Shown: piece after piece, positions 1 to 4,626 of the stretch | How the letters are laid out: each line of letters opens with the position of its first letter | Position numbering within the stretch: position 1 is the stretch's first letter | DNA from: a virus | Taxonomy: Duplodnaviria > Heunggongvirae > Uroviricota > Caudoviricetes | Length of the DNA: 4,626 nucleotides | Virus record (IMG/VR): IMGVR_UViG_2698536414_000004 | Direction: 5' to 3' (one strand) | Notes under the pieces: generated by a model | Database searches by the model: none | Seen by the model: only the letters and a program-made list of their open reading frames with translations | Told to the model about the DNA's origin: nothing | Made by a program: the position numbers and the translations under genes

Positions 1-100
1 CCTGGCACGGCTGGGACGGAAGTCGCTGTCGTTCTCAAAATCGGTGGAGCTGCATGACAAAGTCATCGGGCATTATCTGAACATAAAACACTATCAATAA
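1..100 (+). CDS. insB: IS1 transposase InsB, C-terminal fragment (32 codons plus stop; 5' part outside window)
   Basis: Frame starting at nt 2 reads [32 protein letters not shown] with stop TAA at 98-100, matching the end of IS1 InsB. The ORF track misses it because there is no start codon in the window. Confidence 0.92.
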
Positions 101-115
101 GTTGGAGTCATTACC
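93..115 (+). repeat. IS1 right terminal inverted repeat (IRR)
   Basis: atcaataagttggagtcattacc is the reverse complement of GGTAATGACTCCAACTTATTGAT, an imperfect inverted copy of the left terminus at 4000-4022 (GGTGATGCTGCCAACTTACTGAT). Confidence 0.9.
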
Positions 116-3008
116 TAACATCCCAAACAGTGATTCACAGTACTTATTCAGTGAACAGGCAATATGCTACGCGGGAACTGAAAAGAATATAAACCAGATT
201 TATATTGATAATGAACCAGTATTAGCCGTTCCGGTCACTCAGGATGGTATTGTACCAAAGGCGAATATTGCCAGTAAGTATCAGGAATATCTACAACTTG
301 AAGTACGGTTTGGTGGCGATTATACCAGTACTAAATCTCTTGCAAGCCAATACGCCGGGCCGAAGTGGACAAATAAGTTTCTTGGTAAAGGCATTGTTTC
401 TGTCAGTGCGGTTATTAAAAAAACACAACAATCATTAGAGCAGAATCTTCTTGTGAATGATCAGTTCACGATGACTGTTGAAATGAAAGGTCAGAGAATA
501 TTAGACCTCGTAACAGGGTCAGTACTGGCGACGTCAAATCCACCATCAATTATCTACGACTATCTGACCAATACAACGTACGGGATGGGAATTGAACCGG
601 GATTAATTAATCTCGATACCTTCCTTGAAACCGCAGCGTATTGTGACCAGATGGAGTATTACGCTAATGGTTCAATTAGCTATCAAAGCTCGTACAAGGA
701 AAACATTGAAAATATCTGTCAGGTATTTGGCGGTATTATGTATGTACATGCAGGGCAAATCTGTATTACGACGGATCGTAAAACGCTTTCGGTTGCATCA
801 TTCAATGAAAATAACATGTTTGGTGCAGTACAGATCAGTACCAGCGGCGGCACAGACTACTTCAATACTGTTGATGCGAAGTACACCAATCCAGCCAGTA
901 TGTACACGACTGACGTGTTACGCATTCCTTCCGATATTACGATTGATGAGGCAATTCAGCGTGACGGGCAGGTTATTACCCTAAGCCGTGATTACTCTTG
1001 GTGCTATGACGCTGATGTACTGGCGAAGATGGTCAATGTTGATGTACTCAAGGCTAAGTACGCCTTACGTATTGTATCCTTCACCACAAGTGAAGGCTGG
1101 GATCTGAAGGTATGGGATGCGATCAACGTCAGCAATACTGAACTGAATATTTCAGGGAAGTTTAAGGTACTGTCAAAAGAAGTGGCAACCGATCAGGAGA
1201 ACGTTGGGTACGTTACAATCACGGCAGTTGAAGCCCCTGATGCAATGTACGATGGCGTAGATCCCGGTATCTGGTCACCTGGCGGTTCAATCCAGTTTCC
1301 CGAACTAAGCGTAAAGGCTCCCACGAACCTACAGGCAGTACGCAAAGGTAACACAACAAACGGCTCCCTTGTCGATCTCACATGGGATGCGTCACAAGAT
1401 CCGTGGCTACGGGGTTATTACATCTACTATAAGTTGAGTAGTTCCGGTACTTGGACGTATGCGGGAAGTACTAATACCCAGAAAACCGACTTTGAACTAT
1501 TCGGCCTCTCAGACACTGCGGCTTATGACTTTGGGGTTGAGGCATATAACAATCTCGGCCTTACGAGTAACAGACTAACGTTAACGGGATTAGTGCCGAC
1601 ATATAACTTTGCATTACCTTCCGTAACTGGTGTCGTACTGGCAAATCGCACCGTGGGGCAATATGAAACTGATTCTGCTGATTTCAATATCCGTTGGGAT
1701 AATCAGAAGAATTTAATCGTTAATGGTCGCTCATTTTCTGATTACTTCAAGTACTACACCATTAATATCTATAACGGTAGTGATTTAATCGATACATTCT
1801 ATACGCAGAGCAATACATTCAACTTTACGCTTGAAATGAACCGACTCAGAGTGCGTAAACCTACTATTGGCATTATTGCTCAGGGATTCAACAATGGTAC
1901 TTATTCACAGGAAGTACGAATTACCGTTGAGAATAAACAATGTGGATTAGTGCAGGGTGTTCAGTTCACTGGCGGGTTTAGCAACTTATTCGCCTCATGG
2001 ACTCCATCGACTGAGAGGGATTATGCCGGGGCAGTAGTGAGTATTGTTAATGGTACGAGTACTAAACTCTACACCAGTAATAAACCTGAATTTGACAGTA
2101 TACCCAACATTCCAGATGGAGAATATAAAGTTAAGGTCGGATTCTTTGATGTATTTGGACAGGACAATATTCAGTACTCGGCAGAGCAGACGGTCAGCAT
2201 TAACAGCAAATACCAGTTTACGGAAGATGATGCAGAACAGATTAATGGAATACTTGATCTCGATGATCGTCTGAATGAGACAATTGAAAATGCAGTTAAT
2301 GAAAGTAATGAATACACCAATACGCAAATCTCTACATTGAAAAACACGGTAGACGGAAACACGGCAAGCATAACAAATCTAAATCAGACTGTAGCGGATA
2401 ATGACACAGCACAATCACAGGCAGTTACACAGCTACGTAGTGATGTGAACGGGCAGATTGCCACGGTTAACCAGCAGATGAGTACAAAGGCAACTGCAAG
2501 CACTGTAGACAGCCAGTACTCATTGTCCGTCAATGCTAACGGTACTGTAGCGGGTATCCGTCTTGTTGCTTCTCAGGGAACGAGTAACAACAGTGCTATC
2601 TATTTCGCAGCAGATAAATTTATTGTCAGCGGCAGTAGTGCGGCGACAGTAGGCGGTACGGCTCCATTCTCAATCGTGAATGGTACTACCTACATCAAAA
2701 CATCCATGATTCAGGCGGCAAGTATCGGTACTGGTTACATCGCAGATGCAGCGATCACAAATGCGAAAATTGCCAATGCCAGTATTAATGCAGCAAAAAT
2801 TATCGATGGTGAAATTACCAATGCGAAAATTGGTGCCACGATACAAAGTACTAACTATGTTGCCAACTCTACAGGATGGCAGATAAATAAATCAGGTACT
2901 TTCTATATTAATGGATCTGGTGGCACAGGTAAGATGGTTATCAGTAATAACCTTATTCAGATCTACGATAACAATAATAAATTACGTGTAAGAATGGGGT
3001 TGTGGTAA
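102..3008 (+). CDS. Phage host specificity / tail tip (central tail fiber) protein, lambda gpJ-like, N-terminally truncated by IS1 (native coding sequence begins at 116; possible pseudogene or IS1-fused remnant)
   Basis: 968-codon ORF, stop TAA 3006-3008. Blocks resembling lambda gpJ as I recall it: GQRILDL ... YGMG (Y160 at nt 579) ... YCDQ; a coiled-coil-like segment followed by [10 protein letters not shown]...[11 protein letters not shown] (compare J VAGIGL...FLVAANRIAFI); [27 protein letters not shown] (compare J TIAENCTINGTLRAEKIVGDI). Three FN3-like beta-sandwich segments at about residues 400-700. The frame is open from the stop at 84-86 through the IS1 boundary at 115/116. The only start before nt 453 is TTG at 102, inside the IS1 inverted repeat, so the native 5' end is missing (roughly 100-130 codons by comparison with J). 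Confidence 0.85.
2754..2843 (+). repeat. In-frame tandem coding repeat, 3 x 30 nt ([10 protein letters not shown] / [10 protein letters not shown] / [10 protein letters not shown]) within the J-like gene
   Basis: The 10-residue period is read directly from the translation. Nucleotide direct repeat acaaatgcgaaaattg (2757-2772) and accaatgcgaaaattg (2817-2832), 15 of 16 identical, 60 nt apart. Confidence 0.75.
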
Positions 3009-3307
3009 TGGCACAGGGTTTACAATGCTGGGATGCATCTGGACGATTAATTGTCGATATTGGTGATTACAACATGCGGTACATGGGATCAGTCAATCTT
3101 AATGTATCGGCTGGTAGTACTACATCATGGAATGTAGCCTGGTCGGGTATGCGTCCAACGGGTTGGTTGGCAGTAATGCGAGTGAGTCAGTACTGGAATG
3201 AGTTTTACTGTATTCCGGGTACTAACGCTTTCACCGTTCAATATCTTCCAGTGAGTGGCGTTTATGCCCAAACATTAACATTCGATATATACAAATATGA
3301 CGTGTAA
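3008..3307 (+). CDS. Hypothetical protein, small tail-tip-associated module (about 99 aa); paralogous to the N-terminus of the next ORF
   Basis: ORF in the -1 frame relative to the J-like gene. ATG at 3008 overlaps the J stop (TAATG); an alternative GTG lies at 3002. Stop TAA 3305-3307. N-terminus [20 protein letters not shown] aligns with MSGFQVYNSAGALTIDSD of the next ORF. No signal peptide. Only weak G-rich Shine-Dalgarno (GGGG at 2996-2999), so expression probably depends on translational coupling. Confidence 0.6.
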   Translation: MAQGLQCWDASGRLIVDIGDYNMRYMGSVNLNVSAGSTTSWNVAWSGMRPTGWLAVMRVSQYWNEFYCIPGTNAFTVQYLPVSGVYAQTLTFDIYKYDV

Positions 3308-3315
3308 GGATCACT

Positions 3316-3963: not shown

Positions 3964-3999
3964 TATAAATACTCATAATAACAATAATAAGGCATAATG

Positions 4000-4022
4000 G
4001 GTGATGCTGCCAACTTACTGAT
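4000..4022 (+). repeat. IS1 left terminal inverted repeat (IRL)
   Basis: ggtgatgctgccaacttactgat; imperfect inverted copy of 93-115. Confidence 0.9.
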
Positions 4023-4054
4023 TTAGTGTATGATGGTGTTTTTGAGGTGCTCCA
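4000..4054 (+). promoter_or_regulatory. IS1 left-end region upstream of insA (expected location of the insA promoter and InsA operator within the IRL)
   Basis: Established IS1 biology: the insA promoter lies in the left end and is repressed by InsA binding the terminal repeat. The position is inferred from that knowledge; I did not map -10/-35 elements. Confidence 0.5.
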
Positions 4055-4330
4055 GTGGCTTCTGTTTCTATCAGCTGTCCCTCCTGTTCAGCTACTGACG
4101 GGGTGGTGCGTAACGGCAAAAGCACCGCCGGACATCAGCGCTATCTCTGCTCTCACTGCCGTAAAACATGGCAACTGCAGTTCACTTACACCGCTTCTCA
4201 ACCCGGTACGCACCAGAAAATCATTGATATGGCCATGAATGGCGTTGGATGCCGGGCAACAGCCCGCATTATGGGCGTTGGCCTCAACACGATTTTACGT
4301 CACTTAAAAAACTCAGGCCGCAGTCGGTAA
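4055..4330 (+). CDS. insA: IS1 transposition inhibitor / DNA-binding protein InsA
   Basis: GTG start at 4055, stop TAA 4328-4330. 91 aa, [40 protein letters not shown]...LKNSGRSR; the zinc-finger-like CxxC...CxxC and the rest match InsA. Confidence 0.95.
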
Positions 4331-4626
4331 CCTCGCGCATACAGCCGGGCAGTGACGTCATCGTCTGCGCGGAAATGGACGAACAGTGGGGCTATGTCGG
4401 GGCTAAATCGTGCCAGCGCTGGCTGTTTTACGCGTATGACAGGCTCCGGAAGACGGTTGTTGCGCACGTATTCGGTGAACGCACGATGGCGACGCTGGGG
4501 CGTCTTATGAGCCTGCTGTCACCCTTTGACGTGGTGATATGGATGACGGATGGCTGGCCGCTGTATGAATCCCGCCTGAAGGGAAAGCTGCACGTAATCA
4601 GCAAGCGATATACGCAGCGAATTGAG
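4249..4626 (+). CDS. insB: IS1 transposase InsB (made as InsAB' fusion by -1 frameshift), 3' partial; continues beyond window end
   Basis: -1 frame relative to insA. From ATG 4249: [125 protein letters not shown], open to the last base of the window. Confidence 0.93.
4306..4312 (+). other. IS1 programmed -1 ribosomal frameshift slippery motif (A6C) joining insA and insB frames
   Basis: ttAAAAAACtc at 4304-4314, inside the insA/insB overlap (insB frame opens at 4249, insA stops at 4330). Established IS1 mechanism. Confidence 0.85.

What the first reader, a model, noticed from the sequence alone, without database searches (positions are those of the whole stretch)
1..4626. Directly repeated partial IS1 copies bracket a 3884-bp phage cargo; the two partials are exactly complementary apart from 26 bp
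The window starts with the last 115 bp of IS1 and ends with the first 627 bp of IS1, same orientation. 627 + 115 = 742, and the InsB frames at the two ends are separated by exactly nine missing codons (RHNLNLRQH, 26 nt plus the first base of the window), so the window nearly reconstitutes one 768-bp IS1. This is consistent with a composite-transposon-like unit flanked by two IS1 copies, with a circular IS1-plus-cargo molecule of about 4.65 kb (excision product or translocatable unit), or with a circular contig from assembly across a repeat. In each case the tail-tip genes are positioned to be moved, deleted or amplified by IS1-mediated recombination.
Basis: partly seen in the sequence, partly recalled or inferred. 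Interest (0 to 1): 0.55.

Follow-up and report, generated by a model that had tools for sequence, protein, structure and literature searches.

The report
Draft contig ending inside IS1 copies
The window is a complete 4.6-kb contig from a short-read E. coli draft assembly that stops inside the common insertion sequence IS1 on both sides of a decaying prophage tail-gene fragment, which is an ordinary repeat-induced assembly break and not evidence of a circular or mobile unit.

Summary
Window 1-115 is IS1 nt 654-768 and window 4000-4626 is IS1 nt 1-627. Both are 100% identical to a full 768-bp IS1 in E. coli 14EC007, and 26 nt (nine InsB codons) are missing between them.

The "partial copies" are contig ends, not truncated elements. 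The window is the entire record CYCX01000103.1 (4626 bp) of draft assembly GCA_001283485.1. It has no terminal overlap. The two IS1 pieces share no sequence.

The same 32-residue InsB stub that opens the window is listed in 4,956 blocks of the contig collection. In ten gapped scaffolds inspected, IS1 resumes at nt 653-655 straight after the N run.

The 3,884-bp cargo holds a central tail fibre gene lacking about 103 codons and two small phage ORFs. It lies uninterrupted in a prophage between yeaG and mipA in five other genomes.

In the isolates with the truncated gene, the upstream neighbour gene and the N-terminal stub expected from a simple insertion were not found. The left IS1 therefore probably marks a deletion or rearrangement.

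Nothing shows a circle, an amplified array or transposition as a unit. The 26-nt near-complementarity remains unexplained; it is probably an assembler by-product or chance (3-7%). Interest is low.

The parts
1..115 (+). 3' end of IS1 (IS1 nt 654-768), cut by the contig start. It holds the last 32 InsB codons (2-97), the stop (98-100) and the right inverted repeat (about 93-115).
   Evidence: It is 100% identical to L001 33256-33370. The 32-aa stub is listed in 4,956 blocks of the contig collection. In the ten scaffold places shown, IS1 resumes at nt 653-655 straight after the N run.
102..3008 (+). Deposited 968-aa 'phage tail protein' ORF (CTT79874.1). It is a hybrid whose TTG start and first 5 codons (MESLP) lie inside the IS1 right end.
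116..3008 (+). Central tail fibre (J-like) / tail tip fibre gene lacking its first ~103 codons. The intact allele is 1067 aa.
   Evidence: Window 116 corresponds to L001 15001, inside the intact gene at L001 14690-17893. It matches PF09327, fn3 and PF13550 and phrog_31 at 1.3e-61. The intact allele P0008 is identical over the shared part.
3008..3307 (+). 99-aa phage ORF of unknown function
   Evidence: phrog_7961 at 8.5e-28; gene call
3316..3963 (+). 215-aa phage ORF of unknown function (DUF8377 by precomputed Pfam)
   Evidence: phrog_4524 at 6.2e-63; PF28254 listed; no hit in the local Pfam copy
3964..3999 (.). AT-rich intergenic spacer. The right-hand IS1 junction lies 1 nt before the ATG of the next prophage gene (90 aa), which is not in the window.
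   Evidence: Window 3999 corresponds to L001 18884 and the ATG of the 90-aa gene is at L001 18886.
4000..4626 (+). 5' part of IS1 (nt 1-627), cut by the contig end. It holds the left inverted repeat (about 4000-4022), insA (4055-4330), the A6C frameshift motif (4304-4314) and the insB' frame, which is open to the last base.
   Evidence: It is 100% identical to L001 32603-33229. InsA domains PF03811 and PF12759 match.

Best explanation
The window is one whole contig of a short-read draft assembly of an E. coli isolate. In that genome a 3.9-kb piece of a degraded siphovirus-type prophage lies between two IS1 copies in the same orientation. In other strains this prophage sits between yeaG and mipA. 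IS1 is 768 bp long and multi-copy, so the assembler could not read through it. The contig therefore stops inside IS1 on both sides. The 'partial' IS1 pieces are truncations of the record, not of the elements. The left IS1 inactivates the central tail fibre gene, and the prophage DNA that should lie upstream of it appears to be absent. That junction is therefore most likely the scar of an IS1-associated deletion or rearrangement and not a simple insertion. The right IS1 sits in an AT-rich spacer just before the next gene. Shown here: the contig identity, the IS1 identity, the native context of the cargo, and the absence of end overlap. Inferred: that both IS1 copies are full length, that a deletion occurred on the left, and that the 26-nt shortfall is an assembler by-product or chance.
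For: The window equals contig CYCX01000103.1, contig length 4626 (L007 equals the window). IS1 matches occur in 4971 of 5426 complete E. coli genomes, with a median of 11 places per genome. Both IS1 parts are 100% identical to a complete IS1 that has a 9-bp duplication in 14EC007. The cargo is 99.9% identical to uninterrupted sequence in five other genomes, with continuous sequence across both junction sites. The 32-aa InsB stub at the window start is listed in 4,956 blocks of the collection, on contigs of all sizes. In ten places on N-gapped scaffolds, IS1 resumes at nt 653-655 straight after the N run. Other drafts end inside IS1 at assembly-specific coordinates; for example, three PSNIH6 contigs all stop at IS1 nt 584. 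The truncated 968-aa product carries four accessions and sits on three contigs, all 2-5 kb. For the loss on the left: predicted N-terminal stub proteins for 7-10-bp duplications are absent from the collection and from a homologue search. In this accession series, the upstream DUF6950 gene carries only the accessions that pair with the intact-allele isolates. IS1-adjacent deletions and IS1 composite transposons are established behaviour (PMC12065110).
Against: No reads, depth or other contigs of the source assembly could be examined, so full-length IS1 copies and the outer flanks are inferred. The right end (627 nt of IS1) is much longer than a k-mer overhang, and I could not show why it stops there. 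My first idea was that co-resident IS1 variants differ at nt 628 and 653. It found no support: 100 of 105 IS1 copies with conserved flanks have the identical 26 nt, and none varies at 628 or 653. The partial InsB product expected at a contig ending at nt 627 is not in the collection. The accession-list argument for the missing upstream gene assumes the lists are sorted and complete per source. Exact-match look-ups also fail on a single residue change.
Confidence: 0.8

Rival explanations
1. This is a functional IS1 composite transposon (Tn9-like). The two IS1 copies mobilise the tail-gene segment as a unit, and it may already sit at a new locus.
For: The same-orientation IS1 ends on both sides match the Tn9 architecture. 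The native upstream neighbour appears to be absent in the isolates carrying it, which would fit relocation. IS1 pairs a few kb apart readily form active composite transposons (PMC12065110).
Against: No second location of the cargo was found. In every other genome it lies in the native prophage, and there are no plasmid or phage hits. The junctions are absent from viral and metagenome contigs. The cargo is a 5'-truncated gene with no evident selectable function. The absence of the left flank is explained equally well by an adjacent deletion.
Confidence: 0.08
2. This is a circular IS1-plus-cargo molecule of about 4.65 kb, or a tandemly amplified [IS1-cargo]n array, so both window ends belong to the same IS1.
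For: 627 + 115 = 742, which is only 26 nt short of one IS1, in the same orientation and frame. IS1-flanked segments are known to excise and amplify (established knowledge: the r-determinant of R100/NR1, and Tn9).
Against: There is a gap and no end overlap, whereas assemblers normally leave an overlap on circles. The cargo bases next to IS1 differ (TAACATCCC and GGCATAATG), so this is not a simple IS1 insertion into a circle. The cargo has no replication, partition or integration gene, so such a circle would not persist. Yet the same structure appears under four protein accessions. There is no plasmid match.
Confidence: 0.04
3. There were two independent simple IS1 insertions into an otherwise intact prophage, each with its own 9-bp duplication and with no loss of flanking DNA.
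For: The right junction lies in an AT-rich spacer typical of IS1 targets. Downstream prophage genes occur in genomes of the same accession series on separate contigs, which is compatible with a simple right-hand insertion.
Against: The N-terminal stub (106 residues plus IS1 read-through) predicted for 7-10-bp duplications is not on record. In this accession series the adjacent DUF6950 gene carries only the accessions that pair with the intact-allele isolates.
Confidence: 0.08

Closest known systems
Repeat-induced contig breaks at insertion sequences in short-read assemblies
   Same: A whole draft contig ends inside a multi-copy 768-bp IS on both sides. The same 32-aa InsB stub is listed in 4,956 blocks of the collection, and in ten gapped scaffolds IS1 resumes at nt 653-655. 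Other drafts show assembly-specific IS1 end coordinates.
   Different: The right end carries 627 nt of IS1, far more than a k-mer overhang. The reason for that stop was not established.
Tn9-type IS1 composite transposons (direct IS1 repeats flanking a cargo)
   Same: IS1 ends in the same orientation flank a segment of a few kb.
   Different: There is no evidence of full-length copies, of a duplication bracketing the unit, or of the unit at a second site. The cargo is a broken tail gene and not a selectable marker.
IS1-mediated adjacent deletion and IS-driven prophage decay
   Same: IS1 abuts a 5'-truncated gene and the upstream DNA appears to be missing. The same prophage carries IS3-family insertions in 14EC007 and an IS66 insertion in L005. 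Sister isolates have another disruption in the 215-aa gene.
   Different: The deletion end-point and the original IS1 position could not be seen.
IS1-flanked r-determinant of R100/NR1 and IS26 translocatable units (circular, amplifiable IS-plus-cargo units)
   Same: On paper, one IS plus the cargo would make a 4.65-kb circle.
   Different: There is no end overlap, no depth or junction data and no plasmid context. IS1 is not an IS6-family element, so the IS26 translocatable-unit mechanism does not apply.

Membership tests
IS1 family insertion sequence | Imperfect terminal inverted repeats of about 23 bp (GGTGATGCTGCCAACTTACTGAT and GGTAATGACTCCAACTTATTGAT) | tested here: met
   The left repeat is at 4000-4022 and the right repeat at 93-115. 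Both are identical to the complete IS1 of 14EC007.
IS1 family insertion sequence | insA (zinc ribbon plus HTH) followed by insB' reached through a -1 frameshift at A6C | tested here: met
   PF03811 and PF12759 match on 4055-4330. The motif TTAAAAAACTC is at 4304-4314. The insB' frame is open to 4626 and resumes at 2-100.
IS1 family insertion sequence | A complete element of 768 bp | not testable with these tools
   Both copies are cut by the contig ends. Each is seen from one side only.
IS1 family insertion sequence | A 9-bp (sometimes 8-bp) target-site duplication around each copy | tested here: inconclusive
   The outer flanks are not in the window. The stub proteins predicted for 7-10-bp duplications at the left copy are not on record. 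The predicted outer junction strings are absent from the viral collection, and the predicted left outer junction is also absent from metagenome contigs. Neither collection would be expected to hold this isolate.
IS1 composite transposon (Tn9-like) | Two complete IS1 copies flank the cargo | tested here: inconclusive
   One end of each copy abuts the cargo in the same orientation. Their completeness is unseen.
IS1 composite transposon (Tn9-like) | One target-site duplication brackets the whole unit | not testable with these tools
   The outer flanks lie on other contigs of GCA_001283485.1, which the tools could not reach.
IS1 composite transposon (Tn9-like) | The unit is found at more than one genomic location or replicon | tested here: not met
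   The cargo occurs only in the native prophage context, without IS1, in other genomes. There are no plasmid or phage matches, and the inner junctions are absent from the viral collection; the left inner junction is also absent from metagenome contigs.
Circular contig, circular IS-plus-cargo molecule or translocatable unit | Terminal overlap, or exact closure of the sequence into one IS copy | tested here: not met
   There is no terminal overlap of 8-199 nt. 26 nt of IS1 are missing, and no repeat links the ends.
Circular contig, circular IS-plus-cargo molecule or translocatable unit | Raised read depth, or junction-spanning reads joining both cargo ends through one IS | not testable with these tools
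   No reads or coverage values were available.

The most novel reading that the evidence does not exclude
The IS1-cargo-IS1 block is an active composite transposon or excisable unit that moves a phage central-tail-fibre (host-range) module between prophages or replicons. The near-complete IS1 sum would then reflect a real circular or tandem intermediate present in the sequenced culture.
Probability: 0.04. Interest if true: 0.4.

Novelty: already known. Interest (0 to 1): 0.07.

Why it matters
It matters little biologically. IS1 insertions, IS1-adjacent deletions and IS-driven prophage decay in E. coli are textbook, and contigs that end in IS copies are the standard failure of short-read assembly. 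The practical lesson is for the scan. When a window is a whole short contig, 'partial' mobile-element copies at its two ends describe the assembly and not the genome, and arithmetic on their lengths should not be read as structure. The deposited 968-aa 'phage tail protein' is also an annotation artefact: it starts inside the IS1 end.

Tried and rejected
1. I tested whether the contig ends mark variant sites between co-resident IS1 copies at nt 628 and 653. I scanned species-representative genomes for IS1 608-627 + N26 + 654-673. Of 105 copies, 100 had the identical 26 nt. The five variants changed nt 630, 631, 644 or 652, never 628 or 653. The idea is not supported. The scan could not see copies with diverged flanks or indels.

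2. I looked up the N-terminal tail-gene stub fused to the IS1 left end, as predicted for 7-, 8-, 9- and 10-bp duplications. None is on record. A homologue search with the stub returned only unrelated fragments.

3. I looked up partial InsB products that would mark other contigs ending at IS1 nt 627. None is on record.

4. I scanned for the junction strings: inner left, inner right and both predicted outer junctions against viral contigs, and inner left and predicted outer left against metagenome contigs. There were zero hits.

5. I tried to fetch contigs of sister isolates through the intact allele P0008.

6. I searched papers for the assembly accession. Only spurious hits came back.

7. I tried to assign downstream prophage genes to the source genome from protein accession numbers. 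The numbering is interleaved between genomes, so no assignment was possible.

8. I tested the idea of an IS1 insertion into a small circular replicon and rejected it. The cargo bases on the two sides of IS1 are not a duplication, and the cargo has no replication genes.
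Full report
**Observation.** The window begins with 115 nt that are identical to IS1 nt 654-768. It ends with 627 nt that are identical to IS1 nt 1-627. Both pieces are on the + strand. The comparison was made against a complete 768-bp IS1 in E. coli 14EC007, which is flanked there by the 9-bp duplication CAGCCGAAG. The 26 nt not represented are CGGCATAACCTGAATCTGAGGCAGCA. 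The IS1 identity is supported by the InsA domains PF03811 and PF12759 on 4055-4330 and by the A6C frameshift motif at 4304-4314. The two pieces do not overlap each other. The window therefore contains no repeat linking its ends and has no terminal overlap.

**What the window is.** An exact look-up of the 968-aa ORF (102-3008) returned a single architecture. It is contig CYCX01000103.1 of assembly GCA_001283485.1, contig length 4626, range 1-4626. That locus is base-for-base the window. The window is therefore an entire contig of a draft assembly, and the 'partial IS1 copies' are simply where the record stops.

IS1 matches occur in 4971 of 5426 complete E. coli genomes, with a median of 11 places per genome. 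It is exactly the kind of repeat that breaks short-read assemblies. The 32-residue InsB stub encoded at window 2-100 is listed in 4,956 blocks of the contig collection, on contigs of every size class. In the ten places inspected, all on N-gapped scaffolds, IS1 is written as a short 5' piece, 100 N, and then nt 653-768 or 655-768. The window's left end, at nt 654, is thus a routine assembly end-point, about one k-mer deep into the repeat. Other drafts show their own fixed end-points; for example, three contigs of one Pantoea assembly all stop at IS1 nt 584.

**The cargo.** Window 116-3999 is 99.9% identical (3-4 SNPs) to uninterrupted DNA in five other genomes. There it is part of a prophage between yeaG and mipA, and the sequence runs continuously across both IS1 junction sites.

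- Window 116 falls in codon 104 of a 1067-aa tail tip fibre gene.
- That gene matches PF09327, fn3 and PF13550 and is J-like, matching phrog_31.
- Two small phage ORFs of unknown function follow it (phrog_7961 and phrog_4524).
- The right junction lies 1 nt before the ATG of the next gene (90 aa), in an AT-rich spacer.
- The deposited 968-aa 'phage tail protein' starts at a TTG inside the IS1 right end, so it is a hybrid ORF.
- Sequenced phages are only distant relatives, at 31% amino-acid identity or less.
- No phage or plasmid record matches the cargo at the DNA level.

**Flanks in the source genome.** These cannot be read directly, but two indirect tests were possible.

- If the left IS1 were a simple insertion, the source assembly should encode the first 106 residues of the tail protein fused to a few IS1-derived residues. 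None of the four predicted products (7-10-bp duplication) is on record. A homologue search did not find one either.
- The truncated protein carries four accessions: CTT79874.1, CTW09720.1, CTW44042.1 and CTW95269.1. In the same accession series, the immediately upstream DUF6950 protein carries only CTT66852.1, CTW89081.1 and CTZ90303.1. Those pair with the isolates that have the intact 1067-aa allele P0008.

The prophage DNA upstream of the left IS1 therefore appears to be missing in the isolates that carry this structure. That fits an IS1-adjacent deletion or rearrangement better than a simple insertion. This inference is negative and rests on exact-match look-ups and on sorted accession lists, so I hold it at moderate confidence. 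The right flank could not be assessed, because accession numbering is interleaved between genomes.

**The 26-nt near-complementarity.** My first explanation was that co-resident IS1 variants differ at nt 628 and 653 and so create graph branches. It found no support. Of 105 IS1 copies with conserved flanks, 100 have the identical 26 nt and none varies at 628 or 653.

The left end (115 nt) looks like a k-mer overhang. The right end (627 nt) is an extension whose stop I cannot explain. Candidates are partial gap filling of a scaffold, a diverged co-resident IS1, or a truncated copy. None is testable without the other contigs or the reads.

If the two ends were independent and uniform, a sum within 26 nt of 768 would occur about 3.5% of the time one-sided, or about 7% two-sided. 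No evidence ties the two ends to the same IS1 molecule.

**Mechanistic readings.**

- Best supported (0.8): the contig ends are a repeat-induced break, and the cargo is a prophage remnant between two same-orientation IS1 copies, with IS1-associated loss on the left. This prophage is being eroded by IS elements in several lineages. 14EC007 has two IS3-family insertions and missing tail genes. L005 has an IS66 insertion. Sister isolates have a 215-aa gene cut to 115 aa.
- Composite transposon (0.08): the architecture resembles Tn9, and IS1 pairs do transpose intervening DNA (PMC12065110). However, no second location, no plasmid copy and no bracketing duplication were found.
- Circle or tandem array (0.04): there is no end overlap, no duplication across the IS, no replication functions and no depth data.
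- Two clean independent insertions (0.08): this is disfavoured by the missing stub and the missing upstream gene.

**Verdict.** The underlying biology is IS1 insertion or deletion in a decaying prophage, which is already well known. Interest is low.

Noticed in passing
window 102-116: The deposited 968-aa 'phage tail protein' (CTT79874.1 and three more accessions) starts at a TTG inside the IS1 right inverted repeat. Its first five residues (MESLP) are IS1-derived, so it is a hybrid ORF produced by annotating a truncated gene.
   Followed up: partly
about window 3650 (215-aa gene); protein P0035: Isolates of the same accession series that keep the intact 1067-aa tail gene carry the 215-aa gene cut to 115 aa, ending ...NSAG-VNDG, on contigs of 9.4 kb or less. 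This is a different disruption of the same prophage, and the inserted sequence was not identified.
   Followed up: partly
L001 9107-13983; L005 12708-15124: The same yeaG-mipA prophage carries two IS3-family insertions and has lost most tail genes in 14EC007. It carries an IS66-family insertion in GCA_030887785.1. IS-driven decay of this prophage recurs in several lineages.
   Followed up: no
L112-L121 (GCA_033843365.1, GCA_033843425.1, GCA_033843605.1), locus positions about 2784-3116: In all ten places shown from these chromosome-scale records, IS1 is written as a short 5' piece (mostly about 113-117 nt), 100 N, and then IS1 nt 653-768 or 655-768. These are scaffolded short-read assemblies with every inspected IS1 interior missing. 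This explains why a 32-aa 'IS1 family transposase, partial' is so common in databases.
   Followed up: partly
L014 1383-2270 (Pantoea piersonii NZ_RARB01000005.1): Stacked partial IS1 pieces (nt 98-653, 555-768 and 655-768) are separated by single N characters. One join occurs at the short repeat CTGGC. It looks like a gap-closing artefact, and its break at nt 653/655 coincides with the window's start.
   Followed up: partly
L022, L024, L026, L031, L062, L064-L066, L072, L076, L080 and others: Short contigs (0.3-1.5 kb) carry IS1, 99-100% identical where BLAST-checked, in assemblies labelled Streptomyces, Nocardia, Bacillus, Streptococcus, Agrobacterium, Amycolatopsis and others. Where a coverage is given in the contig name it is low (0.4-1.9). 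This is probably contamination from E. coli or cloning hosts and not native IS1.
   Followed up: no
window 3316-3963: The precomputed annotation lists PF28254 (DUF8377) for the 215-aa protein, but hmmscan against the local Pfam-A copy found no family at E <= 0.01. The local library probably predates that model.
   Followed up: no
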